Origin: an uncultured virus (IMG/VR IMGVR_UViG_3300028888_000117)
Taxonomy: Duplodnaviria; Heunggongvirae; Uroviricota; Caudoviricetes
IMG/VR virus record: IMGVR_UViG_3300028888_000117
Strand: one strand, 5' to 3'
Length of the DNA: 20,000 nt
Each line of letters starts with the position of its first letter. Within the stretch, counting starts at the first letter, position 1. Below are positions 6,484-19,863 of this stretch, piece by piece. The translations under genes were made by a program, and so were the position numbers. Below the pieces are notes generated by a model. That model searched no databases and had not been told where the DNA came from. It saw nothing but the letters and a program-made list of their open reading frames with translations.

Positions 6484-6512
6484 AATACTAATATTATTTA
6501 AAATACAAACTT

Positions 6513-6584
6513 GGCCCGTTCGTCTATCGGTAAGGACTACAGGTTTTCAACCTGCCAAGAGGGGTCCGACTCCCCTACGGGCTA
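6513..6584 (+). tRNA. tRNA-Glu(TTC)
   Basis: Cloverleaf; anticodon arm CAGG-TTTTCAA-CCTG. Confidence 0.9.
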
Positions 6585-6621
6585 CTGAAACATAATTTGA
6601 TTAAGTTCAATAATGTTAAAC

Positions 6622-6644
6622 GTTCTTTGACATGTTGGTACAAT
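6622..6644 (+). promoter_or_regulatory. boxA-like antitermination element GTTCTTTGACATGTTGGTACAAT
   Basis: Identical 23-mer at 15545-15567, each shortly after the first tRNA of an array; resembles rrn boxA. Confidence 0.65.
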
Positions 6645-6734
6645 TAAGATATTTATAAAGTTAAACGTTGCTGTGAAAGCAATGACTAATCAGTTTCCAT
6701 TAAAGATTACTAATACTTTTGAGAGTGGATGTTC

Positions 6735-6827
6735 GGAGGTTTACCCAAGTTGGTGAAGGGGGCACACTGCTAACGTGCTAGGTCGGTGTAACCCATCGGC
6801 GCGGGGGTTCAAGTCCCTCAGCCTCCG
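6735..6827 (+). tRNA. tRNA-Ser(GCT)
   Basis: Class II cloverleaf, loop CTGCTAA, G73. Confidence 0.9.
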
Positions 6828-7060
6828 CTAAATATTCAAATATATCCGTAAGGAGTCAGAAGTTTAAATCTTTCCCTGGGTTTGAACTGCCTGGGTGGCA
6901 GAATGTTGAATGATTGCAATATTTGAATATTAAAATAGATATATGTCTGTATCACTGGTGTGATTAATAATTTGAAGCGTGGTTCGAAACCGCAACTAGG
7001 ATAGTTCAATTCTTGACTGGGCATGGGTGCAATATAATTATTCTTATATCTATTTAAATT

Positions 7061-7146
7061 GGAGAATGAACTGCGGCGGCCCGCAGGACTGTCTTGAAAA
7101 CAGCTCGTTCGGTGAAACGGATTGGGATCGACACCTACTTTCTCCG
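7061..7146 (+). tRNA. tRNA-Ser(TGA) with 8/4 fold (allo-tRNA-like)
   Basis: Acceptor GGAGAATG/CTTTCTCC, 6-bp D stem CTGCGG/CCGCAG, loop CTTGAAA, 4-bp T stem TGGG/CCTA. Confidence 0.75.
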
Positions 7147-7151
7147 CAAAC

Positions 7152-7327
7152 AAATCTACTAGTGTAGGATAGAGTTACTTCATAAGAAAGCTGATAACTT
7201 CTCAAAATTTTTCCAGTAAATGGAATACGGGTTCGAGTCCCGTCCATGGCATCGTGCCGCGGTGGTGAAATTGGTATACACGAAATTTTTATCTAATAAT
7301 TACTTTATTCATTAATTCTGTAGATTT
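7152..7327 (+). ncRNA. Y-RNA (YrlA)-like RNA with circularly permuted tRNA domain
   Basis: Closing stems AAATCTAC/GTAGATTT and GGATAGAGT/ACTTTATTC enclose a T arm (ACGGG-TTCGAGT-CCCGT), a loop-closed acceptor (CCATGGCA-TCG-TGCCGCGG) and then a D arm. Confidence 0.65.
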
Positions 7328-7334
7328 TATATTT

Positions 7335-7421
7335 GGTCAGGTGCCCGAGTCTGGTTGATGAGAGTAGTCTGCAAAACTATTGGAAGAAATTCCCGCGTGG
7401 GTTCAAATCCCACCCTGGCCT
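7335..7421 (+). tRNA. tRNA-Cys(GCA), long variable arm
   Basis: GTAGT-CTGCAAA-ACTAT, U73; variable hairpin GGAA-GAAA-TTCC. Confidence 0.85.
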
Positions 7422-7422
7422 C

Positions 7423-7563
7423 AAAATTATCTGGTGTATATAAGAGTTACTTCACGATTTTTAATTAAGTGGTTTTAATGCAATTTTTCCAGAATTGAAT
7501 CCTTGGTTCGAATCCAAGAGAATCGATATTTATTTATACTTTTATAGCTGTTCCGATAATTTT
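7423..7563 (+). ncRNA. GAGTTACTTC-stem RNA copy 2 (contains a T arm only)
   Basis: AAAATTATC/GATAATTTT closure, motif at 7444-7453, T arm CTTGG-TTCGAAT-CCAAG. Confidence 0.55.
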
Positions 7564-7568
7564 ATTTT

Positions 7569-7643
7569 GGGTCTGTGGTGTAGGTGGTTGTCGCTCGTCG
7601 GACTGAAAATCCGAAGGCACTTGTTCAACTCAAGTCGGACCCA
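7569..7643 (+). tRNA. tRNA-Phe(GAA)
   Basis: TCGGA-CTGAAAA-TCCGA. Confidence 0.88.
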
Positions 7644-7931
7644 CAATATAGATTACAGCCAAAAATGCTATGGAAAATATGTTGTAATTTATATTATAAA
7701 GACTTAGAGTAAATTTAGTAAAAGTCCCAGACGTGTATCTAAGTCTAAAACTATTTAAGCTCAACATTGGTTGAGTAAGCTCTGAAAACAATTATTTTAA
7801 TTTAACACGTGTCCTATAGTTGTTTTCATTATCTTAGAGCTATCTTGTACTTAAGGCGCCAAGAAGTACCTCGCCTACGCGGAATGTAGAGGAAATATTA
7901 AGTATGAGGATTTGGAAAGATTTATATTAAT

Positions 7932-8011
7932 CAGGGTGTAGCCGGTAATAGGTGACCGACTCGCTTTGGAAGCGAGATTAAGTTATGCAGGTTCGAGTCC
8001 TGTCTCCCTGA
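7932..8011 (+). tRNA. tRNA-Pro(TGG)
   Basis: CTCGC-TTTGGAA-GCGAG; C1:G72, A73. Confidence 0.88.
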
Positions 8012-8471
8012 CCTAATTGTAATTTTCAAGACCTGCGGACAAACGTTAAAGCAGCTGCAAGTCCAGCTCCAATATGGTATAGGACTCGGTAAGACCTATG
8101 TGGTCGATAGCTACGAACCCCATAGTGAGACGAGGAAAGTGAGAAGATTACAATTATCTTATATACGGAGATACGTGGTGAGACACCTAGTATGGCCCGC
8201 AAGGTTTGATAGTTTAAGATAGAATACCGTATAACAAATAAATGTTAGGAAATTGCCCACCGAGATTTAAGGTAGCTCCTTAAACAGCTGAATGGGAAAC
8301 ATGCAAGCTATGTTATGATATTGAATATCGGCCGTAAAATATCAATAACTTGAAGAGAAATAGTTAACATTTATTTTTGAAAAATATAATGATAATATCT
8401 ATTTATTATTATATAATCGGAATGTAGTAATTATTAATGATAGAAAAAATTAATAAGTTTCTTGAATATTT

Positions 8472-8555
8472 AGGGGTGTAACCGGTAATTGGTACCCGCC
8501 CGCATTTGGGATGCGGAAGCTTCGGCCTATGCGCGTTCGAGTCGCGTCGCCCCTA
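8472..8555 (+). tRNA. tRNA-Pro(TGG), enlarged variable region
   Basis: CCGCA-TTTGGGA-TGCGG; variable region AAGCTTCGGCCTAT. Confidence 0.85.
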
Positions 8556-8577
8556 CGATCTCAATCTTGGCAAATTT

Positions 8578-8646
8578 AATTGATTAGTGTAGTAGAGAGT
8601 TACTTCTAGGAATGCTTAAATACTTTCTACGATTATTCTATCAATT
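8578..8646 (+). ncRNA. GAGTTACTTC-stem RNA copy 3 (minimal)
   Basis: AATTGAT/ATCAATT and GTAGAGAGT/ACTTTCTAC stems, motif at 8597-8606. Confidence 0.55.
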
Positions 8647-8649
8647 TAT

Positions 8650-8721
8650 GCTCGGTTCATCTAAGGGTTAGGATTCAAGATTTTCATTCTTGCCATACGA
8701 GTTCGAATCTCGTACCGAGTA
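8650..8721 (+). tRNA. tRNA-Glu(TTC)
   Basis: CAAGA-TTTTCAT-TCTTG. Confidence 0.9.
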
Positions 8722-8722
8722 C

Positions 8723-8796
8723 AATTCCTTGTTGAAGAATAGAGTTACTTCAAGAATGGGTCTTTAAAAATACTTTATTCGCTTATTACAGGAATT
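8723..8796 (+). ncRNA. GAGTTACTTC-stem RNA copy 4 (minimal)
   Basis: AATTCCT/AGGAATT and GAATAGAGT/ACTTTATTC stems, motif at 8742-8751. Confidence 0.55.
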
Positions 8797-8803
8797 TTAA
8801 TAT

Positions 8804-8875
8804 GGGGCTGTCATCTAACGGTCAGGATCTCAGGTTTTCAACCTGGTCATCGGAGTTCGAGTCTCCGTGGCCCTA
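8804..8875 (+). tRNA. tRNA-Glu(TTC)
   Basis: TCAGG-TTTTCAA-CCTGG. Confidence 0.9.
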
Positions 8876-9102
8876 CAAAAGTTCATTATCCTAGACGATA
8901 GGTAAAGTTGGCATTAGAGATATGGGTTATCCGGAAATTTACCACATATCACTTGCCGGAGTTGTCATAATCGAGTGTACATAAGTAAAGAACTCCCAAA
9001 GGCTTGAGCTTTAATACATTGGGCGAGATGGAACAGAACTTTTATTTAAGTCGCTTACTAAAACGCTGCGGGTTTTTGAGGTTATCCATAAACCTCAAAT
9101 TT

Positions 9103-9175
9103 AGGGCTGTCGTCTAACTGGTAAGGATTTATCCCTGATAAGGATAAGATCCCGGATCATACCCGGGTGGCCCCA
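9103..9175 (+). tRNA. tRNA-Ile(GAT), atypical T loop ATCATAC
   Basis: TATCC-CTGATAA-GGATA; T stem CCCGG/CCGGG. Confidence 0.75.
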
Positions 9176-9185
9176 CAAATTAAAT

Positions 9186-9259
9186 TGGGATATACAGTAT
9201 AATGGTTAGTACAGCGGACTCTGACTCCGCAGGTTTCGGTTCGAATCCGGATATCCCAA
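9186..9259 (+). tRNA. tRNA-Gln(CTG)
   Basis: GCGGA-CTCTGAC-TCCGC; U1:A72. Confidence 0.9.
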
Positions 9260-9337
9260 CAATATAAGGTGACGAATTGGTGTCAGGTAGTCCGAAAGTA
9301 CAAGCCCACATTACGGGAAGAGCCTTATATTTATAAT

Positions 9338-9411
9338 TGGGCTATGCTGTGTAACGGTTAGCACGTCAGCCTTTGAAGCTGAAGGTCTGGGTTCGAATCC
9401 CGGTAGCCCAA
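9338..9411 (+). tRNA. tRNA-Gln(TTG)
   Basis: TCAGC-CTTTGAA-GCTGA; U1:A72. Confidence 0.9.
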
Positions 9412-9413
9412 CT

Positions 9414-9511
9414 AAGTAAGTAATATTTGAAGAGGATAGGTTCGACTCCTTAGTGTAACGGTAGCACACTTCGTATATATTTAATGCATTAATATATAAA
9501 ATTACTTACTT
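9414..9511 (+). ncRNA. Permuted tRNA-elbow mimic (T loop directly followed by a D arm)
   Basis: GGTTCGACTCC then TAGTGTAACGGTAGCAC inside GAAG/CTTC and AAGTAAGTAAT/ATTACTTACTT stems. Confidence 0.5.
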
Positions 9512-9517
9512 TTTAAT

Positions 9518-9591
9518 TGGGGCATAACTCAGTTGGTTAGAGTGTCAATCTGATACGTTGAAAGTCCCGTGTTCGAGTCACGGTGCCCCAA
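9518..9591 (+). tRNA. tRNA-Ile(GAT)
   Basis: TCAAT-CTGATAC-GTTGA. Confidence 0.9.
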
Positions 9592-9594
9592 CTT

Positions 9595-9825
9595 TGGGAA
9601 TTAGCAAAATGATTCGTATGAAAGTTATTATTTATAAATATTTGCGTAAGGCCGCAATTAGACTGAAAGTTCTCGAGATCAATAATATTTATAATAATGA
9701 TAAGTAATGACAGAAAGATAAAGTAATAAGAATAGCTAACTTACGAAATTGAATTTGAAAATGCGAACATACTGCGCTACCCGTGGGTGGGTAGAGGTCC
9801 TGTGAAAGTCAGTGGTTCCCGACCA
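9595..9825 (+). ncRNA. Pro-like tRNA scaffold with a ~160-nt insertion in the D region
   Basis: Acceptor TGGGAAT/GTTCCCG followed by ACCA; arm CTACC-CGTGGGTG-GGTAG; degenerate T arm. Confidence 0.4.
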
Positions 9826-9826
9826 T

Positions 9827-9902
9827 GCCGAGGTATACCCTCGCTCTCATAAGGCGTTGAAAGGTTAGTTGGTTCACGTGAGTTCGACCCTCACCCTCGG
9901 TA
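9827..9902 (+). tRNA. D-armless tRNA-like gene, anticodon CAT
   Basis: Acceptor GCCGAGG/CCTCGGT, CGCT-CTCATAA-GGCG, variable arm TGAA-AGGTTAGTTGG-TTCA, T arm GTGAG/CTCAC. Confidence 0.65.
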
Positions 9903-9930
9903 CATTTATATTAATATAAAGATATTATAT

Positions 9931-10003
9931 GCGGCTGTCGTATAACGGTTTATTATACTCGCCTTCCAAGCCAGTGACGTGGGTTCGACTCCCATCAGCC
10001 GCT
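9931..10003 (+). tRNA. tRNA-Gly(TCC)
   Basis: CTCGC-CTTCCAA-GCCAG (C:C mismatch), U73. Confidence 0.88.
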
Positions 10004-10178
10004 CGCATTAGTAATGGAGTTTGGTAACGAAGGGTGCTCCCAAGGTTCTCCACGTTAAATCCTTCATAGGAGTTTGAATGATTAATTTCATCAAATATTA
10101 AAAACTGTCTTTAATGTGGGCACCGTTTTATATTAAAATTTAAATTATATTAATGATATAATACGGTGCCTATATAAT

Positions 10179-10254
10179 GCATCTGTCGTATAACGGTTCA
10201 GTACGTTCGCCTTCCAAGCCTAAGACGTGGGTTCGACTCCCATCAGATGCTCCA
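10179..10254 (+). tRNA. tRNA-Gly(TCC), weak anticodon stem, CCA encoded
   Basis: TTCGC-CTTCCAA-GCCTA; ends TCCA. Confidence 0.8.
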
Positions 10255-10266
10255 TTCTTAATTGAT

Positions 10267-10340
10267 GGCCCTCGGGACAGATTGGTTTAAGTCGTCGGTC
10301 TCTCAAGCCGGAATAACGGGTTCGAATCCCGTGGGGGCTA
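10267..10340 (+). tRNA. tRNA-Glu(CTC)
   Basis: TCGGT-CTCTCAA-GCCGG. Confidence 0.9.
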
Positions 10341-10430
10341 CACGGCAGGTTTAACAAGGTTTCCTGCGTAATTTATAATTACTTAAGGTTAAGAAAAAAT
10401 GTTGTGACTAATAGGAGAGACTATTTATTT

Positions 10431-10561
10431 CGCGGAGTGGTGAGATTTTTTAATACTTTATTCGCTGTTGCTTCAATATGAATGCTGTAGATTAGAGTTA
10501 CTTCGGTATACACGCTTTTATTTGGAAAAAGATTATGTTGGTTCGAGTCCAACCTCCGCGA
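10431..10561 (+). tRNA. tRNA-like gene (loop ATTTGGA, TTG as written) with the GAGTTACTTC module in its D loop
   Basis: Acceptor CGCGGAG/CTCCGCG, D stem GTG...CAC split by ~60 nt, CTTTT/AAAAG arm, T arm GTTGG-TTCGAGT-CCAAC. Confidence 0.65.
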
Positions 10562-10710
10562 CAAACTTCTTTGATTATTTCTTTAAAGAAATATCCTATG
10601 ACTATATAATTGAATTACGTAATATATATTATATAGGAAGTATGCATAGGCGAGGGTTCAGATGGCGTGACACGGAACTAAGTTTTCGGATCTAAGGAAA
10701 ACCGAATAAT

Positions 10711-10782
10711 GCAGTGTAGGTGTTTATGGTTGCATATGAGATCGCCATTCTTAAGGAGCCAGTTCGAATCTGGTACGCTGCT
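10711..10782 (+). tRNA. tRNA-Gly(GCC), C at position 33
   Basis: TGAGA-TCGCCAT-TCTTA, U73. Confidence 0.8.
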
Positions 10783-10986
10783 CAATATGCAGGGAGCTGT
10801 GAGGTACGCAGCATGTCCGCCCTGCTCCAATAGAGGATACCCCTGAGGCCTCTTATAAATCCGCTTAGGGCCGTACCGAGGTTTACGTTGAAATCCCGCC
10901 CTCGCAGCTTGTGCAGTCATATGCCTTGAATATGATGAAAAACGTATCGGGACATATCAGGGAGCGCGGTTGACCTGATTTAATAT

Positions 10987-11061
10987 GGTGTCGTTAACTT
11001 AACTGGTAAAAGGCGGTGACTGTGAATCACTGAGATGTCGGTTCGAATCTGACACGATACC
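10987..11061 (+). tRNA. tRNA-His(GTG)
   Basis: G-1:C73; GGTGA-CTGTGAA-TCACT. Confidence 0.9.
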
Positions 11062-11226
11062 CAATAAAATCATCTGAGGGTCTGAAAAGAACTATATTCT
11101 AATGGCAAAGAATATGGATATTCAGAGAGGAGAACAGTTGGATGCCATTTCTATTTAAATAGAACCTTCTAGTTTCATGGCGTTAAGGATGACTTGAAAT
11201 AGTCTGTGTAAGATGATTTTATATAT

Positions 11227-11310
11227 GGTGGTATTCGTCTAGTGGCCGATGACGCCAGATTGTGGTCCTGGTAGCGAGAGCTCACGTTGGTTCGAATCCA
11301 ACATACCACC
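11227..11310 (+). tRNA. tRNA-His(GTG), long variable arm
   Basis: G-1:C73; loop TTGTGGT; variable hairpin AGC-GAGA-GCT. Confidence 0.85.
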
Positions 11311-11458
11311 TCGTGAATATCTTGAAGGAAACATCTATCTTAATAAATAGAAGAAGTTACCGTAGGCAACCAATGTGTAGCAACATACATTAGTGTATCA
11401 TTCATCAAGGCAAAATATTAGAGTTGTACGGGATAGTGGAATGTAAAGGTATTATTTT

Positions 11459-11549
11459 GGAGATGTAAGCCTAATTGGTAAGGCAGTAGTCTTGAAAACT
11501 ACTAGTAATCGTGAATAACGGTGTGTCGGTTCGAGTCCGGCCGTCTCCG
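11459..11549 (+). tRNA. tRNA-Ser(TGA)
   Basis: GTAGT-CTTGAAA-ACTAC; class II; G73. Confidence 0.9.
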
Positions 11550-11572
11550 CAGATATATAATATGTAGAGAAA

Positions 11573-11893
11573 ATGAAAATAGATGATAATAGATTTTTGA
11601 AAGATAGTGATAAGACTGGTCGTTTTATTGTTAAATCAAAAATCACAGGAAAGAAATATTTTATAGAACCTATAGGTAATACTCATTCTGCTGATTGGGG
11701 AGATTTGGATCCTGCAACTAAGAAAATGACAGGATCATACGGAGAACGATATGAAGGATGCGTACCAGAGAAAGATTCATTAATTACTAAAGAAAATGGA
11801 TTTGAAAAAATAGAATTATTAAATGCTGGTGTATCACCTTTGTCAGAAATAGACAGAAGAGATAAAGAATACCAAAAACAAATGGGTTTATAA
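11573..11893 (+). CDS. Hypothetical protein (106 aa) inside tRNA array 1
   Basis: ATG start, protein-like composition (..FIEPIG..WGDLDPATKK..GSYG..), fills the gap after tRNA-Ser. Confidence 0.85.
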   Translation: MKIDDNRFLKDSDKTGRFIVKSKITGKKYFIEPIGNTHSADWGDLDPATKKMTGSYGERYEGCVPEKDSLITKENGFEKIELLNAGVSPLSEIDRRDKEYQKQMGL

Positions 11894-12129
11894 ATTAAAG
11901 CATGCCGTCATAGGTTGGTGCACAGGCCTATGAATCGAAGTAGCCTAATATTATGGTGTTAGGAGAAATCGTACGTTCTGTTCCTTAAGTGCGTGGTCTG
12001 AGGAATCTATAGAAGCGTTAGTTAGAGTTGTTGTACCTGTATCTTCAGATATGTACCACATCCTATAGAGGGCGAGGAACCTCAGAAAGATACCATATCT
12101 TTCACGAAACTCGAAAGAGCCACGTGTAT

Positions 12130-12198
12130 CGGGGGTTAGCTCAACGATAGAGCCATGGATTTTACTATGAGACGGTTGTTTAACTCAATCACCCCTGA
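12130..12198 (+). ncRNA. tRNA-like element with a 6-nt anticodon loop (ATTTTA)
   Basis: Acceptor CGGGGGT/ACCCCTG, D arm GCTC/GAGC, T arm GGTTG-TTTAACT-CAATC. Confidence 0.55.
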
Positions 12199-12208
12199 CA
12201 AATTAAAT

Positions 12209-12267
12209 TGGTTACGCAGTAAATGGTACATGTATGCTAGCTATTTGGTTCGATTCCAACGTAACCA
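12209..12267 (+). ncRNA. Miniature tRNA-like element (~59 nt) without a proper anticodon arm
   Basis: TGGTTACG/CGTAACCA, GTA-AATGG-TAC, TTGG-TTCGATT-CCAA. Confidence 0.5.
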
Positions 12268-12291
12268 TCTATAAATGTTGATATTAATAAT

Positions 12292-12370
12292 ACCCTGCTA
12301 GACGAATTGGTATAGTCAGTAGCCTTAGAAGCTATCCTTAGGGGTCTGGGTTCGAGTCCCAGGCGGGGTA
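12292..12370 (+). tRNA. tRNA-Leu(TAG)
   Basis: GTAGC-CTTAGAA-GCTAT. Confidence 0.9.
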
Positions 12371-12386
12371 CAAAATTAAAATATAT

Positions 12387-12460
12387 AGGGCTGTAGCTTA
12401 GTGGTTTAAAGCACTTGCCTTACAAGCAAGGGAGCGTGAGTTCGACTCTCACCAGCCCTA
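12387..12460 (+). tRNA. tRNA-Val(TAC)
   Basis: CTTGC-CTTACAA-GCAAG. Confidence 0.92.
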
Positions 12461-12710
12461 CGAATACGATACCGTTTTTATATGTAGTTAAACCGGTTAA
12501 AATAAAACTACAAATTAACTCTTTGTTCAATGACTTGATGACAGGAATTTATCGTTACCTGTGAAAAAAGGAAATCATCAAGCTGAAAGAAATTGTAAAG
12601 AATGTCCCTGAGGGGGGTAACGTCTTTATAATTTCAAGTAAGACCAAGAAGTATGAATTATCTGTATGTCGCGAGTACATTTATTCAGAAGGTTAGAATA
12701 AAGAGAAAAT

Positions 12711-12790
12711 GGGGTTATGGCGCAATGGTCGACGCAGCAGCCTAAGACACTGTCCTTAATTGGGTGTGGGTTCGAATCCCACTAACCCCA
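12711..12790 (+). tRNA. tRNA-Leu(AAG), A34
   Basis: Leu-type D loop and variable arm; loop CTAAGAC. Confidence 0.82.
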
Positions 12791-12829
12791 CATCAAACAA
12801 ATTTAAGAAAAATATATAGAGGTATTATT

Positions 12830-13078
12830 ATGATTACTCATGATTTAAAAACTATCGTAAAAGGATCCGCTGTTTTAGATTGTGTTAAATCTGGTGGAAT
12901 TGCAGTTTATCATATAACTGTAGAAGATGGGACTGTCTATTCATTAGATATAGATTTGTCAGATAAACATGATGTTGGAGAAACTGCTACATTTATGTCT
13001 CATTATGATAAAGCATTAATATTGATGAGATGGATAAGACGAGCAATTGACAATAATGAATTATACAAAATTTCATAA
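12830..13078 (+). CDS. Hypothetical protein (82 aa, MITHDLKTIVKG...LMRWIRRAIDNNELYKIS)
   Basis: Start moved from 12764 (inside tRNA-Leu) to ATG 12830, which follows an SD-like AGAGGT. Confidence 0.82.
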   Translation: MITHDLKTIVKGSAVLDCVKSGGIAVYHITVEDGTVYSLDIDLSDKHDVGETATFMSHYDKALILMRWIRRAIDNNELYKIS

Positions 13079-13200
13079 TTTTATTAATGAACTTTATAAA
13101 ATTTCTTAATTGTATCAATATATAATACTGAACTTATCCGGTGATAGCGCGCGATAAAGAATTACAGAATGGTTCAACTCCATTAAGTTCAGTATATTTT

Positions 13201-13279
13201 GGCCCGATGGCGGAATTGGTCTACGCAGCCGTCTCAAAAGCGGTCCTTATGGGTCTGGGTTCGAATCCCAGTTGGGCTA
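13201..13279 (+). tRNA. tRNA-Leu(CAA)
   Basis: GCCGT-CTCAAAA-GCGGT. Confidence 0.9.
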
Positions 13280-13380
13280 CTCGCAATTGACACAAATATC
13301 CCAATAAAGTTATGTATATATTTTATTAATATATATGTAACTTTTTTTATTTTTAATATATAAATACATTAAACTTAGAA

Positions 13381-14553: not shown

Positions 14554-14659
14554 AATATAAAATAAATAAATTATTTGAATTTTTCTATAAAAAATATCTA
14601 ATTTATTTATATAAAATCTTAGAATATTTTTATTATAAATTAAATTAATTAAATATCAA

Positions 14660-14773
14660 ATGCAACAAGTCAATACATATAAACAAATATTAGACCAAAT
14701 ATTAGATAATAATACTTGGAATAAGAATTATGCGTTATGTAAAGACCACTTGCATGGAGATTCTGAGATATAG
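14660..14773 (+). CDS. Leader peptide of tRNA array 2 (37 aa, MQQVNTYKQILDQILDNNTWNKNYALCKDHLHGDSEI)
   Basis: ATG after an A-rich leader, TAG at 14771-14773; overlaps the antiterminator strand; codons 1-32 largely match the array 2 anticodon set. Confidence 0.8.
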   Translation: MQQVNTYKQILDQILDNNTWNKNYALCKDHLHGDSEI

Positions 14774-14844
14774 GGGTACAATAAAATAGAAATGATATAA
14801 ATGCAAGTGGTTGGATTAACAAAAATCTAACCACTTATTTGTTT
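14745..14844 (+). terminator. Attenuator 2: intrinsic terminator with competing antiterminator
   Basis: Hairpin AAGTGGTTGGATT (14805-14817)/AATCTAACCACTT (14824-14836) followed by ATTTGTTT; ACCACTTGCAT (14745-14755) is the exact complement of ATGCAAGTGGT (14801-14811). Confidence 0.8.
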
Positions 14845-14886
14845 AAATAAAACAAACATAATATTTTTAAAAATTTTCTTAATTAA

Positions 14887-14930
14887 TTTAAAATTATAAA
14901 ATAAAGTACTATATTATTTATATAATATTT
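14887..14930 (+). promoter_or_regulatory. Promoter-like motif copy (..ACTATATTATTTATATAATATTT)
   Basis: Similar to 6439-6483 and 15453-15495. Confidence 0.45.
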
Positions 14931-14938
14931 AAAAATAT

Positions 14939-15331: not shown

Positions 15332-15411
15332 GCCTCAATGGCGGAATGGTCTACGCAGAGCACTTAAAATGCTTCCTTAATTGGGTCTTGGTTCGAATCC
15401 AAGTTGAGGTA
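15332..15411 (+). tRNA. tRNA-Leu(TAA)
   Basis: GAGCA-CTTAAAA-TGCTT. Confidence 0.9.
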
Positions 15412-15452
15412 CAAAATTAATAAATAATTCTTTATAAATTTTTTCTTAGAAA

Positions 15453-15495
15453 TTTGAAATTATTTTTTAAAGAACTATATTATTAATATAATATT
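15453..15495 (+). promoter_or_regulatory. Promoter-like motif copy
   Basis: TTTGAAATTATTTTTTAAAGAACTATATTATTAATATAATATT, near-identical to 6439-6483. Confidence 0.55.
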
Positions 15496-15544
15496 CAAAT
15501 TCTAATTATATTTGAAAAGATATTATTTAGATTTTTGAAATTGA

Positions 15545-15567
15545 GTTCTTTGACATGTTGGTACAAT
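15545..15567 (+). promoter_or_regulatory. boxA-like antitermination element, second copy
   Basis: Identical to 6622-6644. Confidence 0.65.
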
Positions 15568-15828
15568 AAAATAAAAAATATTAAAGATATATGTGGGTAG
15601 CGTCACGGAGGACCCCTCCAAGCCAATATTTGGTGAGATTGCTTTATTGAGGTAAATAATCAGTACGGACAGAGGTCATTAGCATAAAATCGCATGTACT
15701 TTAATATTAACAACTGATTTGGAAGAGGTTAGGTGGAAAACCACTGCCAATGAGATGCCAAGCACCTCAGCGGTATAGTTCAGTAAATATATGCAGTAAT
15801 GTAAACAGAATTTCCTTATCATTAAGAA

Positions 15829-15916
15829 TTCCTGATTAGCTCAGATATTATAAGAGCGCTCATCGTTGCCTATGAAGTAACAGAGAGGTCATTGGTGTAA
15901 ATCCAATATTAGGAAC
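15829..15916 (+). ncRNA. tRNA-like element with an extended anticodon arm (loop CT-ATG-AA)
   Basis: TTCCTGAT/ATTAGGAA, D arm GCTC/GAGC, CTC..GTTGC-CTATGAA-GTAAC..GAG, T arm ATTGG-TGTAAAT-CCAAT. Confidence 0.5.
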
Positions 15917-16356
15917 TTAATATGAATGCCTTCGATGTTAGTAGTTAGACTATTTAATAAGTTGGAACAACATTCATAATTTTGGCTGAGGAAGTACCAC
16001 AGGAGCAGATTGAAATAAGTATTAGCCGATGTGGAATAATATTTTTGATGAGGCCATTTTTAATATGGGTCAAACCGATAAGCTGTAGCTGGAGGTCTGG
16101 AGGCTACCAACCGTTTGTACAGAATATGGACTATAGGCAAAAGTACTCGGAAACAGGTGGTGCTGTCGATGAAATTGTTCACCTTTAGGGTTCGATTCCC
16201 TAATGACCTGCAAAGATGTTAGAAAAGGTATAAAGTTCGAACATACCTGAGTAAATTAAATGTGATAATTCGTGCCCCACCGACGGTTATGATGAATGAT
16301 TAGTTGGGTTAAGTGATTGGATGAGGATTCACGACCTCAGCACAGCATCTTTATTT

Positions 16357-16428
16357 GGTGGTATAGTATAATGGTTATTATTTCGGCTTTGTAACCCGAC
16401 GATTTCAGTTCGATTCTGAATACCACCT
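16357..16428 (+). tRNA. tRNA-Thr(TGT)
   Basis: TCGGC-TTTGTAA-CCCGA. Confidence 0.85.
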
Positions 16429-16550
16429 CAAATATATTCTTCTGGTCTGGGAGGTTGGTTCAGACATGCTGCTAAATGTTGAAACATACAGGATTAAGCT
16501 CGGAGAAAATGCATTAAGAGGGTTCGATTCCCTTGAGAATATATTTATTT

Positions 16551-16623
16551 GGGGTTGCATGTTCCAAGGCAGGCGATGGACCTTTGCAAGGTTTGTGGGA
16601 GAGTTCGATTCTCTTCAGCTCCA
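16551..16623 (+). tRNA. tRNA-Ala(TGC)
   Basis: G3:U70, A73; GGACC-TTTGCAA-GGTTT; irregular D arm. Confidence 0.82.
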
Positions 16624-16809
16624 CAAATGGTTAATGTAATGTAAAATAAAAAACTTGGGATGTTATAATAAAACCATTACATTTGCGATTCGTTTCCTAT
16701 TTCCCATAGGTGTCGTTAAGAGGTCGGCTCGGTTGCTAGTTAAGGTTCGGTTTTGTACCGCTTAACTATATTCTGGTCAGCACAGAACGGTTCTCCAATT
16801 TTTAATTTT

Positions 16810-16883
16810 GCTCCTGTAGCTCAGCTGGTGGTAGCATCTGACTGTTAATCAGAGGGTCGCAGGTCCGAGTCCTGCCGGGAGCG
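16810..16883 (+). tRNA. tRNA-Asn(GTT)
   Basis: TCTGA-CTGTTAA-TCAGA, G73. Confidence 0.92.
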
Positions 16884-17063
16884 CTGAACATGGCTAATTC
16901 AATATCAGTGAAAACTCCAGCTGCAATTAATGGAAGAATAGTAACTGTGAGAATTAACAAATCATTACTTATTGCAGAAGTAATTTATCATCTGGTGTAA
17001 TGGTAGCATACCGGGATCCCTCGGAGGAAAGGTTCAATTCCTTATTGATAGCAAATATTTTAT

Positions 17064-17149
17064 GTGTCTTTGGCCGAGCGGTTTAAGGCAGTTGGCTGTT
17101 AACCAACCGAGGTGAATAACCTCCGAGGGTTCGAATCCCCCAGGGCACG
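17064..17149 (+). tRNA. tRNA with Asn anticodon (GTT) on a class II body
   Basis: GTTGG-CTGTTAA-CCAAC; variable arm GAGGT-GAATA-ACCTC; G73. Confidence 0.85.
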
Positions 17150-17229
17150 CGAGTGGTTTGAGTGTTGAATTGACAACTGAAAGGATGAAGAGCTTCCCGT
17201 GGTCCGAAAATGCTAAGTTCATCCATGAT

Positions 17230-17318
17230 GGCTCGATGATGGAATTGGTCTACATGTGGCACTTAAAATGCCATGGGCCGTAAGGCCCTTGCGGGTTCGA
17301 GTCCCGCTCGAGCTACCA
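17230..17318 (+). tRNA. tRNA-Leu(TAA), CCA encoded
   Basis: TGGCA-CTTAAAA-TGCCA. Confidence 0.92.
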
Positions 17319-17444
17319 ATAATATGAGTGTGGAAATAACTTGTAACTCAAGTAGAGAGTTTCCAGTAAATGGGTGGCAAGAAGAGTAAAGAGCTTACAA
17401 TTTAGCCATATTATTATTTTAGATCATTTAGGTGACAGATATTT

Positions 17445-17517
17445 GGTCTCTTGGTTGAATGGTTACAATGTCAGACTGTCGATCTGTACGGTACGGGTTC
17501 GAATCCCGTAGGGACCG
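17445..17517 (+). tRNA. tRNA-Asp(GTC)
   Basis: CAGA-CTGTCGA-TCTG, G73. Confidence 0.88.
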
Positions 17518-17702
17518 CAAATAGAAATTAATAATTTATAAATATAAAATTTAAAACATATGAAAACAATGAAACGAAAACGTTAGTTGTGTATGTTTCC
17601 TGAGAGAAATTGGTATTAAGCAGTTTAACCAATTAGAAGCATGCACGTTAAATCAAAATTAAACGCAAATTATTATTAAGTTTAATACAATTTATTGTGT
17701 AT

Positions 17703-17775
17703 GCCCTCTTAGCTGAGTTGGTAAAGCTGCGGCCTTTTAAGCCGAGGATCCAGGGTTCGAATCCCTGAGGGGGTA
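17703..17775 (+). tRNA. tRNA-Lys(TTT)
   Basis: CGGC-CTTTTAA-GCCG. Confidence 0.9.
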
Positions 17776-17782
17776 CTAATTT

Positions 17783-17857
17783 GCTCTCATGGCGTTAATT
17801 GGTCAGCGTACAAGACTTTTAATCTTCGAGGTCTGGGTTCGAGTCCCAGTGGGAGCA
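17783..17857 (+). tRNA. tRNA-Lys(TTT)
   Basis: AAGA-CTTTTAA-TCTT. Confidence 0.88.
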
Positions 17858-17870
17858 CAAATAATATAAT

Positions 17871-17944
17871 GCTCCGTTAGCTCAGTTGGTTAGAGTAGTT
17901 GCCTCTTAAGCATCGGGTCCAGGGTTCGAATCCCTGCCGGAGTA
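17871..17944 (+). tRNA. tRNA-Lys(CTT)
   Basis: GTTGC-CTCTTAA-GCATC. Confidence 0.88.
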
Positions 17945-17952
17945 CATATATT

Positions 17953-18025
17953 GGGGAGGTCGTTTAGTGGTCCAGGACAGTAGGCTTACATCCTACCAAC
18001 CAGAGTTCGATTCTCTGCCGCCCCA
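17953..18025 (+). tRNA. tRNA-Val(TAC)
   Basis: GTAGG-CTTACAT-CCTAC. Confidence 0.88.
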
Positions 18026-18222
18026 CTCTTGCATGCCATGCAAAACTTATGGAGAAATTTACAGCTACGGTTGATATTGATAGTTCGAAATATTAAATAT
18101 CTTATCCATAAGTACTTATAATGATAAAGTAATGACGGTAGAAGTCCGTGGTAACTACTTTGACGCTATATTACTTGAGATAACAGAACGGATTATCCTT
18201 TATAAGTCAAACCGAAGCTTTT

Positions 18223-18295
18223 GGTCTCTTGGTTGAACGGTAACAATGTCGGATTGTCGATCCGTACGGTACGGGTTCGAATCCCGTAGGGACCG
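18223..18295 (+). tRNA. tRNA-Asp(GTC)
   Basis: CGGA-TTGTCGA-TCCG; close paralog of 17445-17517. Confidence 0.88.
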
Positions 18296-18504
18296 CGATT
18301 CATTATAACATTTTGTAATGAATTAAGGGAAGAAATGGAAGATAGATTATTAAATTTGTTTGTGAAAATAGATTTAATAGAAAAGGGTAAAACTCAAAAG
18401 CGATTGGGAATATAACCATCCCCTTTATAGATGGGATTTTTACCATCATGGTAAAGATTTGGTTGAATCTAAACTAATCCTAAGTACAAATACGTTTAGC
18501 AGTT

Positions 18505-18533
18505 AGTAGAAACACTGGGAGTTTCTACTTTTT
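18505..18533 (+). terminator. Terminator-like hairpin inside array 2
   Basis: AGTAGAAAC-ACTGGGA-GTTTCTACT plus a T run, directly before tRNA-Tyr. Confidence 0.4.
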
Positions 18534-18536
18534 ATT

Positions 18537-18620
18537 GGGGGTTTATTCCGTAAGTGGTAGCGGGGATGACTGTAAATCATCTGGCTTCGGCCTCGGGGTG
18601 TTCGACTCACTCAGCCCCCA
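18537..18620 (+). tRNA. tRNA-Tyr(GTA)
   Basis: GATGA-CTGTAAA-TCATC; class II. Confidence 0.9.
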
Positions 18621-18706
18621 CAATAATATTATTAATAAATTTAAAAGTTAAGAGTTATGAAGGATTATTATTATTGCTATAACGAAGATGATAGTAATTA
18701 TAGCAA

Positions 18707-18802
18707 GCCGACGTAACCGAAGCGGTCCGTAAAACCGTTCTGCTCTATCAAATCTCGGTATTGGCCTCTAGCAGTAAGTAGGTTCGAATCCTACCGGCGG
18801 CA
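18707..18802 (+). tRNA. D-armless tRNA-like gene, loop CC-GTA-AA
   Basis: GCCGACG/CGGCGGC, GCGGT/ACCGT arm, variable stem CTGCT/AGCAG, T arm GTAGG-TTCGAAT-CCTAC. Confidence 0.6.
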
Positions 18803-18819
18803 CAAACAATTCTTAACTA

Positions 18820-18952
18820 TGCTGGTTTATTACGGTATATTGGTAACCGTACCGCCCTGTGAAGGCGGTCTTACTAACCGAAGATTATTACAACCGCGGA
18901 TAAGTAATAATTAATAGGAGTAAGTATGGAGGTTCGATTCCTTCGAAGGCAC
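18820..18952 (+). tRNA. tRNA-His(GTG)-like gene with a ~60-nt variable domain
   Basis: D stem TACGGT/ACCGTA, CCGCC-CTGTGAA-GGCGG, T arm GGAGG-TTCGATT-CCTTC; irregular acceptor. Confidence 0.55.
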
Positions 18953-19065
18953 AATGGTTTTACAAATCAAATTAATCAATGAGGTAAAATCTCAATTCTA
19001 AGTTTTTGATGAAACACTTTGGTTCGGTAAAATTCCGATATGAATTTATTTGATTAAGGAGATTT

Positions 19066-19138
19066 GCGCTCTTAGCTCAGTTGGGAGAGCAACGGGCTTT
19101 TAATCCGTGGGTCCTGGGTTCGAGTCCCAGAGGGCGTA
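19066..19138 (+). tRNA. tRNA-Lys(TTT)
   Basis: ACGGG-CTTTTAA-TCCGT. Confidence 0.92.
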
Positions 19139-19144
19139 CAATTT

Positions 19145-19216
19145 ACCCCTATGGCAGAAGGGTTCATGCAATAGACTCTTAATCTATCTATCAGGGTTCG
19201 AGTCCCTGTGGGGGTA
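19145..19216 (+). tRNA. tRNA-Lys(CTT)
   Basis: ATAGA-CTCTTAA-TCTAT. Confidence 0.9.
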
Positions 19217-19222
19217 CAATAT

Positions 19223-19294
19223 CGCGGAAGCAGTGTGTAGGTCGCATACAAGGCTCATAACCTTAGTGGTGGAGTTCAATTCTCACTTCCGCAA
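19223..19294 (+). tRNA. tRNA-Met(CAT), initiator-like
   Basis: C1:A72 mismatch; AAGG-CTCATAA-CCTT. Confidence 0.8.
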
Positions 19295-19498
19295 CAATAT
19301 TTTAATCAGGACGGAGTTAATCAATGAGAGTACAATGTGAGTAGTAGGGTTACATCTACAGGTTATGGTGAAAGCAAAGGAAATTGATTACGATGGTGGT
19401 ACAGGTATTAGGAGGTGTACAACTCGCGAAATATCCGAGGCCGGAGGATAGTTTAGTGAACCATATCACGGAAGACTAGGTGGGTTAAAATATTATTT

Positions 19499-19577
19499 AC
19501 AGCGGTATCGTCACAGTCTTATACACTGACATTAACCACGTAATTGGTGTATGTGGGTTCGAGTCCCACCCGCTGTA
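19499..19577 (+). tRNA. D-armless tRNA-like gene, anticodon TAT (Ile AUA reader?)
   Basis: ACAGCGG/CCGCTGT, CAGT-CTTATAC-ACTG, variable region containing ACGTAATTGG, T arm GTGGG-TTCGAGT-CCCAC. Confidence 0.65.
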
Positions 19578-19784
19578 CACCAGTTGGAGTAACGCACCGA
19601 CTAGTATCGGGCACAATACGACGAGAAATAGGATGGCATCCTATATGTGTCAAAACTGATGAGTAGGTCTTGTATCGCGGAGGAGCAGATGTCAGTTGAT
19701 TAAAAGTTGCAGTCTGGTATACGCGAGCAGATCCCCAGAAAAGGCAAGGATCTGTGAGTTACCGGTCTCAAAATACCGGTTTAT

Positions 19785-19857
19785 GCGTCTTTGGTCTAAT
19801 GGTTAAGGCACTGGACTCCAAACCCAGTAGATGAGGGTTCGACTCCTTCAGGGCGCG
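19785..19857 (+). tRNA. tRNA-Trp(CCA)
   Basis: CTGGA-CTCCAAA-CCCAG, G73. Confidence 0.88.
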
Positions 19858-19863
19858 CATTAT

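What the first reader, a model, noticed from the sequence alone, without database searches (positions are those of the whole stretch)
14660..14844. Second, sequence-distinct leader attenuator matching the largely complementary tRNA set of array 2
Seen: a 37-codon ORF with an 11-nt antiterminator strand (ACCACTTGCAT/ATGCAAGTGGT) competing with a 13-bp terminator. Codons 1-32 use M,Q,V,N,T,Y,K,I,L,D,W,A,C,H and lack E,F,G,P,R,S; array 2 in this window has no Glu, Phe, Gly, Pro, Arg or Ser tRNA. Codon matches include TTA x3/Leu(TAA) x2, ACA/Thr(TGT), AAA and AAG/Lys(TTT) and Lys(CTT), TGG/Trp, and ATA x2/the TAT gene. Gln and Cys have no partner in the visible part of array 2. The same architecture with different sequence and a switched codon set replicates the array 1 observation. 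Inference: tRNAs are partitioned into separately sensed operons.
Basis: partly seen in the sequence, partly recalled or inferred. Interest (0 to 1): 0.92.

Follow-up and report, generated by a model that had tools for sequence, protein, structure and literature searches.

The report
Leader-peptide switch before phage tRNA array
A tiny translated gene in front of a large phage's second block of tRNA genes is spelled almost only in codons that this block decodes and is wired to a switchable transcription stop, so the phage probably makes more of these tRNAs when ribosomes read those codons slowly.

Summary
A 37-codon ORF lies at 14660-14773. An 11-nt strand inside it (14745-14755) pairs with 14801-14811, which overlaps the 5' arm of a 13-bp terminator (14805-14836).

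Twelve relatives from viral and metagenome contigs keep the ORF open despite in-frame indels. Both mutually exclusive helices show compensatory changes: 5 of 12 antiterminator pairs and 6 of 13 terminator pairs.

The codons more than 13 nt upstream of the antiterminator strand use only amino acids whose tRNAs lie in the downstream array. A second leader at 6209-6313 does the same for array 1. No amino-acid label shuffle matched this (0 of 200,000, in each of four genomes). Substitutions in these windows are mostly non-synonymous yet stay inside the array's set. The ORF tails sit at background.

Best reading (about 0.68): trp-style ribosome-mediated attenuation that senses the array's own tRNAs.

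Caveats:
- A conserved general promoter motif lies between the terminator and the array in most relatives, though not in L079.
- A third, Arg-tRNA cluster has no leader.

Three literature searches found no published account. This scan's earlier AI notes describe similar leaders in other phage genomes.

The parts
14575..14617 (+). Promoter-like block in front of leader 2 (TTGAAT, 18 nt, TAATTT, then TATATAAAAT). Inferred, not measured.
   Evidence: The conserved block starts here in window, L001 and G001, directly after different upstream genes. It resembles the general promoter motif seen. It is not among the sites shown by the sigma-70 scan.
14660..14773 (+). Leader ORF 2: 37 codons plus TAG.
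   Evidence: Open in 13 of 13 versions with in-frame indels; L077 and L088 are cut by contig ends.
14663..14731 (+). Sensing window of leader 2: codons 2-24, each starting more than 13 nt before strand 2.
   Evidence: 17 of 23 codons are decodable by the visible part of array 2. The other six are 4 CAA and 2 ATA. Gln(ttg) is in array 2 of 6 of 6 relatives, and a UAU tRNA-like gene lies at 19499-19577.
14745..14755 (+). Strand 2: the antiterminator 5' strand, inside the ORF (codons 29-32).
14801..14811 (+). Strand 3: the antiterminator 3' strand, overlapping the terminator 5' arm.
   Evidence: the 12-bp helix is 96.2% paired in 13 sequences, and 5 pairs carry changes on both sides.
14805..14846 (+). 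Intrinsic-terminator-like hairpin (13 bp, loop 6) plus a T-rich tail.
   Evidence: 97.0% paired in 13 sequences, and 6 pairs carry changes on both sides.
14887..14929 (+). General phage promoter motif (core ACTATATTATTTATATAATATT at 14908-14929), downstream of the terminator.
   Evidence: The same motif precedes protein genes in L003/L007/L011, L009 and L012, and at 4 of 7 sites in G003.
15332..19858 (+). Visible part of tRNA array 2: 16 ARAGORN genes for Leu, Thr, Ala, Asn, Asp, Lys, Val, Tyr and Trp. A second promoter-motif copy has its core at 15474-15495.
19499..19577 (+). Non-canonical tRNA-like gene with anticodon UAU, which would read ATA.
6127..6156 (+). Promoter-like site of leader 1 (TTGACC, 18 nt, TATAAT).
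   Evidence: 11 of 12 consensus matches.
6209..6313 (+). Leader ORF 1: 34 codons, MMQLSQHIEFIFGSSFSGEPCGLGVNKVSGYTEI. Strand 2 lies at 6290-6297.
   Evidence: Codons 3-23 are all decodable by array 1.
6348..6385 (+). Leader 1 terminator (11 bp, loop 6, T tract). Strand 3 lies at 6353-6360.
6513..13280 (+). tRNA array 1: 24 genes for Glu, Ser, Cys, Gly, Phe, Pro, Ile, Gln, His, Leu and Val. It is preceded by the promoter-motif core at 6460-6481.

Best explanation
This is a ribosome-mediated (leader-peptide) transcription attenuator placed in front of tRNA array 2 of a large AT-rich phage. A sister unit stands in front of array 1. Transcription that enters from the leader's own promoter-like block, or from upstream, meets a 37-codon ORF. 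If ribosomes decode codons 2 to about 25 quickly, the ribosome runs over strand 2 (14745-14755) and sits at the stop codon while strand 3 emerges. The 13-bp terminator (14805-14836) then forms and transcription ends. If decoding is slow at any of those codons, strand 2 is free when strand 3 emerges. The 11-bp antiterminator forms and RNA polymerase reads on into the tRNA genes. Those codons are written almost only in the amino acids and anticodons supplied by array 2, so the switch reports shortage of exactly the tRNAs it controls. That is negative feedback on tRNA supply, block by block. Shown from sequence: the ORF, the two competing helices with covariation, and the codon-to-array match and its co-variation across genomes. 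Inferred: translation of the ORF, termination at the hairpin, the direction of the response, and its size relative to the promoter motif that lies behind the terminator.
For: (1) Anatomy. The ORF, the antiterminator and the terminator are present, and the two hairpins are nearly iso-energetic (-16.3 against -15.8 kcal/mol). The nascent RNA prefers the antiterminator in both leaders.
(2) The ORF is open in 13 of 13 leader-2 versions, two of them cut by contig ends. It carries +6, -3 and -3 nt indels and shifted stops. The leader-1 ORF is open in 6 of 6 versions; G005 is frameshifted in its tail.
(3) Covariation in 13 leader-2 sequences. In the antiterminator, 96.2% of cells pair and 5 of 12 pairs change on both sides; 1 of 500 shuffles reaches this. 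One pair shows G-C, G-U and A-U, and one A-U to G-C change is mirrored in strand 4. In the terminator, 97.0% of cells pair and 6 of 13 pairs change on both sides; 0 of 500 shuffles reach this. In 6 leader-1 sequences the antiterminator is 92.9% paired, with U-A and C-G split 3 to 3, and the terminator is 100% paired.
(4) Codon match, own-array decodable codons in the sensing windows. G003: L1 24/25, L2 22/22. G004: 23/24, 24/24. G006: 24/25, 22/22. L001: 21/22, 21/23. Binomial P ranges from 2e-7 to 5e-4 against proteome fractions of 0.45-0.62. The ORF tails sit at background, 5/11 to 9/13.
(5) Amino-acid label permutation: 0 of 200,000 shuffles reach the observed match, in each of 4 genomes.
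(6) Among 653 ORFs of 30-45 codons in the 376-kb G003 genome, leader 2 is the only one with at least 23 of 24 codons decodable by array 2. Leader 1 is one of three with at least 23 of 24 decodable by array 1.
(7) Substitutions. Derived codons in the sensing windows stay in the own set in 27 of 30 cases (L1) and 13 of 15 (L2). Only 10 and 1 of them are synonymous. In the tails the figures are 13 of 22 and 13 of 25.
(8) Leader and array co-vary. G003 has no tRNA(UAU) in array 2, and its apparent Ile(tat) call in array 1 is a Gly-like gene. Its leader-2 sensing window has lost the ATA codons that the other versions keep. G003 alone has Leu(taa) in array 1, and its leader 1 has three TTA codons. 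G003, G004 and G006 have Met(cat) in array 1 and an internal ATG in their leader-1 windows.
(9) Coverage. The leader window uses every amino-acid type of its array in L001 L1 (11 of 11), G006 L1 (12 of 12) and G004 L2 (12 of 12).
(10) In L079 a tRNA-Leu(taa) gene starts about 17 nt after the terminator with no promoter motif between them.
Against: (1) In the window and in most relatives a strongly conserved promoter-like motif lies between the terminator and the tRNAs (core at 14908-14929, and another copy at 15474). The same motif precedes protein genes. The array may therefore be transcribed mainly without passing the attenuator.
(2) The Arg/Thr(cgt) tRNA cluster of G003 has that motif but no leader or terminator, so the control is not universal in this phage.
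(3) In the window itself only 17 of 23 sensing codons are matched by visible array-2 genes. The four CAA codons rest on relatives, because the window ends at 20000. The two ATA codons rest on a weak, odd tRNA-like gene.
(4) Misses remain. Codon 2 of leader 1 is Lys, or a second ATG, in all 6 versions. G005 leader 1 has one TTA, and its TCA codons are covered only by a low-score Ser(tga) call.
(5) Several matches need U34 to read U- or C-ending codons of family boxes (GTC, ACT, GCT, CCT, TCT). I assumed this rule.
(6) The relatives are one phage lineage, so the base pattern is close to one evolutionary observation. The independent events are the substitutions and the few tRNA relocations.
(7) There is no Shine-Dalgarno sequence, although the phage's other genes seen lack one too. 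The T tract is interrupted, and the host is unknown.
Confidence: 0.68

Rival explanations
1. The switch is real but matters little for array 2. The hairpin mainly ends transcription coming from array 1 or the 390-aa gene and from the leader's own promoter. The tRNAs are driven by the promoter motifs at 14887-14929 and 15454-15495. The antiterminator only tunes a small read-through component, or insulates the two units from each other.
For: The promoter motif lies behind the terminator in the window and in most relatives. It is a general promoter class that also stands in front of protein genes. A further copy lies inside array 2. The Arg cluster runs on the motif alone.
Against: This does not explain why the ORF's sensing window is restricted to the downstream array's amino acids, or why that restriction is maintained through mostly non-synonymous change. 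In L079 a tRNA gene follows the terminator directly, with no motif between.
Confidence: 0.15
2. The ORF is an ordinary small phage protein gene with its own promoter and terminator. The pairing of its 3' part with the terminator arm, and the composition match to array 2, are by-products.
For: Parts of the peptide are well kept (VNTYKQ, DQ.L, W, Y) in 13 versions. The unit has a promoter-like block and a terminator of its own.
Against: Pfam finds nothing at E up to 0.01. In leader 1 the changes are radical but confined to the array's set: position 9 is E, I or V, and position 10 is S, F, V or P. Antiterminator covariation includes changes that alter the peptide, His to Arg and His to Gln. The permutation result is 0 of 200,000. 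The two leaders split the amino acids just as the arrays do.
Confidence: 0.08
3. It is chance: a spurious ORF and an accidental inverted repeat in AT-rich intergenic DNA next to a plain terminator.
For: AT-rich DNA offers many short ORFs and hairpins. The sigma-70 and terminator scans give many hits (87 promoter-like sites against 60 expected).
Against: The fold z-score is -4.64. The ORF is open in 13 of 13 versions. Both helices covary. Only 1 of 653 small ORFs in G003 reaches leader 2's match.
Confidence: 0.02

Closest known systems
Leader-peptide transcription attenuators of enterobacterial amino-acid operons (trpL, hisL, leuL, thrL, pheL; multivalent ilvGMEDA and thr leaders). Named from established knowledge; no paper on them was read here.
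   Same: A short ORF sits ahead of the regulated genes. The antiterminator (2:3) and terminator (3:4) helices are mutually exclusive. The regulatory codons are placed so that a stalled ribosome leaves strand 2 free. The distance from the stop codon to the end of the terminator is about 70 nt.
   Different: The regulated genes are tRNA genes, not biosynthetic enzymes. There is no run of one codon; instead 10-12 amino acids appear a few times each, nearly a full list of the array's isotypes. Out-of-set codons are kept out of the sensing window. A promoter motif lies behind the terminator. There is no sequence relation to these leaders: Rfam gives only tRNA hits above threshold.
pheM leader of pheST (attenuation of an aminoacyl-tRNA synthetase operon). 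Recalled, not read here.
   Same: A leader peptide reports on decoding and controls a component of the translation apparatus itself.
   Different: It senses one tRNA (Phe) and controls a synthetase, not the tRNA genes themselves.
T-box riboswitches.
   Same: A terminator/antiterminator switch that responds to tRNA status.
   Different: A T-box binds uncharged tRNA directly through a specifier codon and the T-box sequence, with no translation. No Rfam T-box match was found in 14500-16400 at E up to 1 or in the whole window at gathering scores.
'Leader-peptide attenuators gating phage tRNA arrays' in this scan's earlier AI notes on other genomes (e1-5836933, e1-5870437, e1-5886956, e1-5926054, e1-6024449, e1-6040601; also e1-2978539).
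   Same: The same architecture and logic are described: a test ORF in the array's codons, followed by a switchable terminator, one per tRNA block.
   Different: They concern other DNA. No look-alike of this leader was found in the notes by sequence. They are unchecked AI notes, except that e1-2978539 is marked 'what was seen stands'. I did not re-test them.

Membership tests
Ribosome-mediated (leader-peptide) transcription attenuator | A short ORF with start and stop codons, upstream of the regulated genes and on the same strand. | tested here: met
   ORF 14660-14773. Open in 13 of 13 versions.
Ribosome-mediated (leader-peptide) transcription attenuator | An intrinsic terminator between the ORF and the regulated genes. 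| tested here: met
   A 13-bp stem, 6-nt loop and T-rich tail at 14805-14846. Covariation supports the stem. Termination activity itself is not testable here.
Ribosome-mediated (leader-peptide) transcription attenuator | An antiterminator helix that excludes the terminator, with its 5' strand reachable by the translating ribosome. | tested here: met
   14745-14755 pairs with 14801-14811. 96.2% of cells pair, and 5 pairs carry changes on both sides in 13 sequences. The energies are similar.
Ribosome-mediated (leader-peptide) transcription attenuator | The regulatory codons correspond to what the regulated genes supply, and lie where a stall frees strand 2. | tested here: met
   The first out-of-set codon lies 1 to 3.3 codons before strand 2 in the eight leaders I checked by eye in the table (window, G003, G004 and G006, both leaders).
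Ribosome-mediated (leader-peptide) transcription attenuator | No independent promoter between the attenuator and the regulated genes. | tested here: not met
   A promoter-like motif lies at 14887-14929 in the window and in most relatives. The feature is met only in L079, for the first tRNA gene.
Ribosome-mediated (leader-peptide) transcription attenuator | Read-through rises when the cognate charged tRNA is scarce. | not testable with these tools
   This needs reporter, Term-seq or in vitro assays.
Rfam leader families (Trp, His, Leu, Thr and similar leaders) | A match to the family's covariance model. | tested here: not met
   Only tRNA reaches gathering score in the window. There is no leader family at E up to 1 in 14500-16400.
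T-box riboswitch | Stem I with a specifier loop, plus the T-box motif. | tested here: not met
   No Rfam T-box hit.

The most novel reading that the evidence does not exclude
Large phages keep each block of their tRNA genes under a 'roll-call' leader peptide. This is a test ORF that lists nearly every amino acid of its own block and no others in the part that can trigger antitermination. The virus can therefore sense, block by block, whether the tRNA supply meets demand, for example after host tRNA loss, and top up only the block that is short. This would be the first leader-peptide attenuation known to act on tRNA genes, and it may be widespread among phages with tRNA arrays.
Probability: 0.55. 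Interest if true: 0.9.

Novelty: new variant of a known kind. Interest (0 to 1): 0.85.

Why it matters
Phage tRNA arrays are usually discussed as codon-usage aids or as replacements for host tRNAs that are lost during infection. How their expression is set is largely unknown. A translation-coupled switch written in the array's own codons would be a direct feedback loop from decoding speed to tRNA gene transcription. It would extend the classic trp/his attenuation logic from amino-acid synthesis to the tRNA pool itself. It would also explain why the tRNAs are sorted into isotype-specific blocks. The idea is directly testable with a defined in vitro translation system, and it offers compact natural sensors of individual tRNA availability. 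Three full-text searches (listings and abstract starts only) found no paper describing such control of tRNA genes.

Tried and rejected
- Whole-genome context: none is held for the window.
- Pfam on the six ORFs: no family. PHROGs on five ORFs (the mini-ORF was not included): only weak matches to families of unknown function.
- The GenBank phage collection by blastn: no match.
- Transcript evidence. The look-up of sequencing runs listed RNA-labelled libraries. X1 holds 0.62 of the sampled words of 13381-15340, and the others hold 0.29 or less. All are kept as contigs. Nothing was laid, so no statement on expression or habitat is made.
- The leader-1 pattern scan gave two unrelated chance hits, L045 and L048, which were dropped.
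- I first read G003's ARAGORN call 'Ile(tat)' in array 1 as a relocated tRNA. On inspection it is a Gly(tcc)-like gene with an insertion, so the claim was reduced to 'G003 has no UAU tRNA called in array 2'.
- I looked for a third leader upstream of the Arg tRNA cluster of G003. There is none, only overlapping protein ORFs and the promoter motif.
- Rfam at E up to 1 on 14500-16400 gave nothing beyond tRNAs and sub-threshold noise. The conserved 270-nt block 15060-15331 has no exceptional fold.
- L087 has an upstream half and a leader identical to the window's, but it cannot stand in for the window's missing end of array 2, because its array 2 is ordered differently.
- No protein-search, structure-prediction or complex-prediction job was run; none bears on the question.

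Full report
CONTEXT. The window is AT-rich DNA (20-43% GC in 1-kb steps). It holds 40 ARAGORN tRNA genes, all on the + strand. No whole genome is held for it. The protein gene between the two tRNA blocks (13381-14553, 390 aa) has no Pfam family. It has a 91%-identical homologue on a 435-kb viral contig, L001. Pattern scans and record searches brought in more relatives. L001, G001, G003, G004, G005 and G006 are viral contigs of 39-435 kb; G003 is rated 98% complete at 376 kb. Sixteen metagenome stretches carry a further six distinct complete leader-2 versions. So this is a lineage of large phages.

- The ORF is 14660-14773, 37 codons plus TAG.
- ACCACTTGCAT at 14745-14755 is the exact complement of 14801-14811.
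- That stretch overlaps the 5' arm of a 13-bp, 6-nt-loop hairpin (14805-14836) followed by a T-rich tail.
- The region folds far better than shuffles: z -4.64, and 0 of 200 shuffles fold as well.
- The terminator alone (-15.8 kcal/mol) and the antiterminator stem-loop alone (-16.3) are nearly equal. RNA cut before strand 4 folds into the antiterminator.
- A sister unit heads array 1. It has a promoter-like site at 6127-6156, a 34-codon ORF at 6209-6313, strand 2 at 6290-6297 pairing with 6353-6360, and a terminator at 6348-6375.

THE ORF AND BOTH HELICES ARE CONSERVED.
- Leader 2 is an open frame in 13 of 13 versions; L077 and L088 are cut by contig ends. The alignment shows a 6-nt insertion near the start in G004 and L073, a 3-nt deletion at codon 16 in most versions, a 3-nt deletion near codon 33 in G003, and shifted stop codons.
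- On 13 aligned sequences the 12-bp antiterminator is paired in 96.2% of cells, and 5 pairs carry changes on both sides. One of 500 shuffles reaches that count, and slid controls pair at 24-36%.
- One position runs G-C, G-U (G001, L086), A-U (L081).
- In G003 and L073 an A-U to G-C change in the antiterminator is matched by the corresponding change in strand 4 of the terminator.
- The terminator is paired in 97.0% of cells, with 6 of 13 pairs changed on both sides; 0 of 500 shuffles reach this.
- Leader 1 (6 sequences) behaves alike: the antiterminator is 92.9% paired, with U-A and C-G split 3 to 3, and the terminator is 100% paired.
- Several of these changes alter the peptide (His to Arg, His to Gln). 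The RNA pairing, not the residue, is what is kept.

THE CODON-TO-ARRAY MATCH. I defined a 'sensing window' as the codons whose first base lies more than 13 nt upstream of strand 2. This rests on the established size of the ribosome footprint 3' of the A site. A ribosome waiting at such a codon leaves strand 2 free. I scored each codon as decodable by an array if an ARAGORN anticodon in that array reads it: G34 reads C and U, C34 reads G, A34 reads U, C and A, and U34 reads A and G, or all four in family boxes. This wobble rule is my assumption.

Own-array hits in the sensing windows:

| Genome | Leader 1 | Leader 2 |
|---|---|---|
| G003 | 24/25 | 22/22 |
| G004 | 23/24 | 24/24 |
| G006 | 24/25 | 22/22 |
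| L001 | 21/22 | 21/23 |

- The fraction of codons in 164 long G003 ORFs that each array can read is only 0.45-0.62. The binomial P values therefore run from 2e-7 to 5e-4.
- The remaining codons of the same ORFs (the tails) match at 5/11 to 9/13, which is background.
- Shuffling the 20 amino-acid labels never reached the observed match: 0 of 200,000 in each of four genomes.
- Among all 653 ATG-ORFs of 30-45 codons in the G003 genome, leader 2 is the only one with at least 23 of 24 codons readable by array 2. Leader 1 is one of three with at least 23 of 24 readable by array 1.
- In the window itself, leader 1 scores 21 of 22; the miss is the second ATG.
- Leader 2 in the window scores 17 of 23 against the visible part of array 2. 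The six unmatched codons are four CAA and two ATA.
- Gln(ttg) lies in array 2 of 6 of 6 relatives, beyond where the window ends.
- A tRNA-like gene with anticodon UAU lies at 19499-19577. It scores 31.1 bits on Rfam's tRNA model and has an atypical D region.
- The six further metagenome versions also use only A, D, I, K, L, M, N, Q, T, V, W and Y before the first out-of-set residue, which lies next to strand 2. I read this by eye from the outputs; their arrays are mostly not on the short contigs.

IT IS NOT SIMPLY A CONSERVED PEPTIDE. Taking the majority codon per aligned position as reference:
- Leader 1 has 30 derived codons in its sensing windows, and 27 stay within the own array's set. The misses are codon 2 twice and one TTA in G005.
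- Leader 2 has 15 derived codons, and 13 stay in the set. The two misses are the window's CAA and ATA discussed above.
- Only 10 of 30 and 1 of 15 are synonymous.
- Leader-1 position 9 is E, I or V. Position 10 is S, F, V or P. Position 12 is F, L or I.
- In the tails, 13 of 22 and 13 of 25 derived codons are in the set.

Selection therefore appears to act on membership in the array's set, not on the peptide sequence.

LEADER AND ARRAY CHANGE TOGETHER.
- G003 has no UAU tRNA called in array 2. Its 'Ile(tat)' call in array 1 is a Gly(tcc)-like gene with an insertion. Its leader-2 sensing window has none of the ATA codons that the six other versions carry. An ATA appears only at codon 25, outside the window.
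- G003 alone has Leu(taa) in array 1 (two genes), and its leader 1 has three TTA codons.
- G003, G004 and G006 have Met(cat) in array 1 and an internal ATG in the leader-1 window. The window and L001 have neither.
- Counter-example: G005 leader 1 has one TTA without Leu(taa) in array 1. Its TCA codons are covered only by a low-score Ser(tga) call.
- Coverage runs the other way too. The leader window uses every amino-acid type of its array in L001 L1 (11 of 11), G006 L1 (12 of 12) and G004 L2 (12 of 12). Each has a probability of about 0.03-0.04 even for in-set draws.
- At anticodon level, 9 of 10 to 16 of 18 species are represented. Many of the missing ones are C34 species (ctc, ctg, ctt, ccc, cta); the others are tac, tgc, aag, tag, acg, gat, tga and gct.

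WHAT SPEAKS AGAINST A SIMPLE ATTENUATOR.
- A roughly 45-nt motif (TTGAAA/T, about 14 nt, then ACTATATTATTWATATAATATT) lies downstream of both terminators, with cores at 6460 and 14908, and again at 15474 inside array 2.
- The same motif stands after terminators and 30-60 nt before the start codons of protein genes in relatives (L003/L007/L011, L009, L012) and at 4 of 7 sites in G003. All seven G003 sites are on the + strand. It is very likely a general promoter.
- The arrays therefore probably have attenuator-independent transcription. The switch would add, or withhold, read-through from the leader's own promoter-like block and from upstream units. How large that share is cannot be told from sequence.
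- One relative, L079, lacks the motif at this place. There a tRNA-Leu(taa) gene begins about 17 nt after the terminator. That is the classical arrangement.
- The complete G003 genome has a third tRNA cluster, with four Arg genes (anticodons acg, tct, tct, cct) and Thr(cgt), at 92-95 kb. It has the motif but no leader.
- No expression data could be obtained.

MECHANISM, WITH STATUS.
- Shown from sequence: the ORF, the two competing helices with covariation, and the codon-set restriction with its boundary next to strand 2.
- Inferred: the ORF is translated. It has no Shine-Dalgarno sequence, like the other phage genes seen.
- Inferred: fast decoding carries the ribosome over strand 2 to the stop codon, so the terminator forms. 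Slow decoding at any codon of the window leaves strand 2 free, the antiterminator forms first, and polymerase continues into array 2.
- The result is negative feedback on exactly those tRNAs. The trigger, such as host tRNA loss during infection, is speculation.

COMPARISON AND NOVELTY.
- It works like the trp, his, leu, thr and ilv leader-peptide attenuators (established knowledge, not read here). It is not a member of any Rfam leader family, nor a T-box.
- It differs in its target (tRNA genes), in listing 10-12 amino acids rather than a run of one, in excluding other codons from the sensing window, and in the promoter behind the terminator.
- Three full-text searches returned no paper on leader-peptide control of tRNA genes or arrays. 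I saw listings and abstract starts only.
- This scan's earlier AI notes report the same kind of unit in other phage genomes. None shares sequence with this one. I did not test those notes, and my reading was formed before I saw them.

Noticed in passing
G001, G003 and G005 at the end of array 2 (loci L036/L037, L031, L053); L007:488-886: A tRNA with anticodon CUA (amber-suppressor type) closes array 2 in three relatives, with low-score calls in three more. A phage ORF in L007 carries one in-frame TAG and stays open when TAG is read as a residue. TAG recoding therefore seems likely in this lineage. Seven of 13 leader-2 ORFs, the window's included, end in TAG. In the window, read-through would carry the ribosome to a TAA at 14798-14800, next to strand 3.
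   Followed up: partly
window 15060-15331: A block of about 270 nt lies between the promoter motif and the first tRNA of array 2. It is almost invariant in L001, L006, L008 and L013. It has no Rfam match at E up to 1 and no exceptional fold (z -0.97). It is unexplained.
   Followed up: partly
window 14930-15056: Two tandem copies of a unit of about 58 nt lie directly after the promoter motif. They are absent from L001.
   Followed up: no
G003 (loci L057-L072, L030-L032): The nearly complete 376-kb relative carries arrays 1 and 2, an Arg x4 plus Thr(cgt) cluster at 92.1-94.9 kb, and a tmRNA at 103.3 kb. Only 2.7% of the codons in its long ORFs lack a tRNA in arrays 1 and 2. The phage therefore encodes an almost complete decoding set.
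   Followed up: partly
L087: A metagenome contig has 1 mismatch in the 9988 nt upstream of leader 2 compared with the window, and an identical leader 2. Its array 2 is ordered differently and starts with Gln(ttg). This is a mosaic or recombinant junction at or just after the leader.
   Followed up: no
window 7335-7422, 7932-8013, 8472-8556, 11227-11312, 17064-17150, 19499-19577: Several tRNA genes of types that are normally about 75 nt long are 82-88 nt here (Cys, Pro, His, Asn). The UAU gene has a 4-nt D region and a 20-nt extra arm. These are insertions or atypical architectures.
   Followed up: no
window 6410-6509, 14858-14957, 15424-15523; G003 95559, 110559, 122611, 193143, 328004, 338722, 339344: A lineage-wide promoter-like motif (TTGAAW, about 14 nt, then ACTATATTATTWATATAATATT) serves both tRNA blocks and protein genes. 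It usually lies right after a terminator hairpin.
   Followed up: partly
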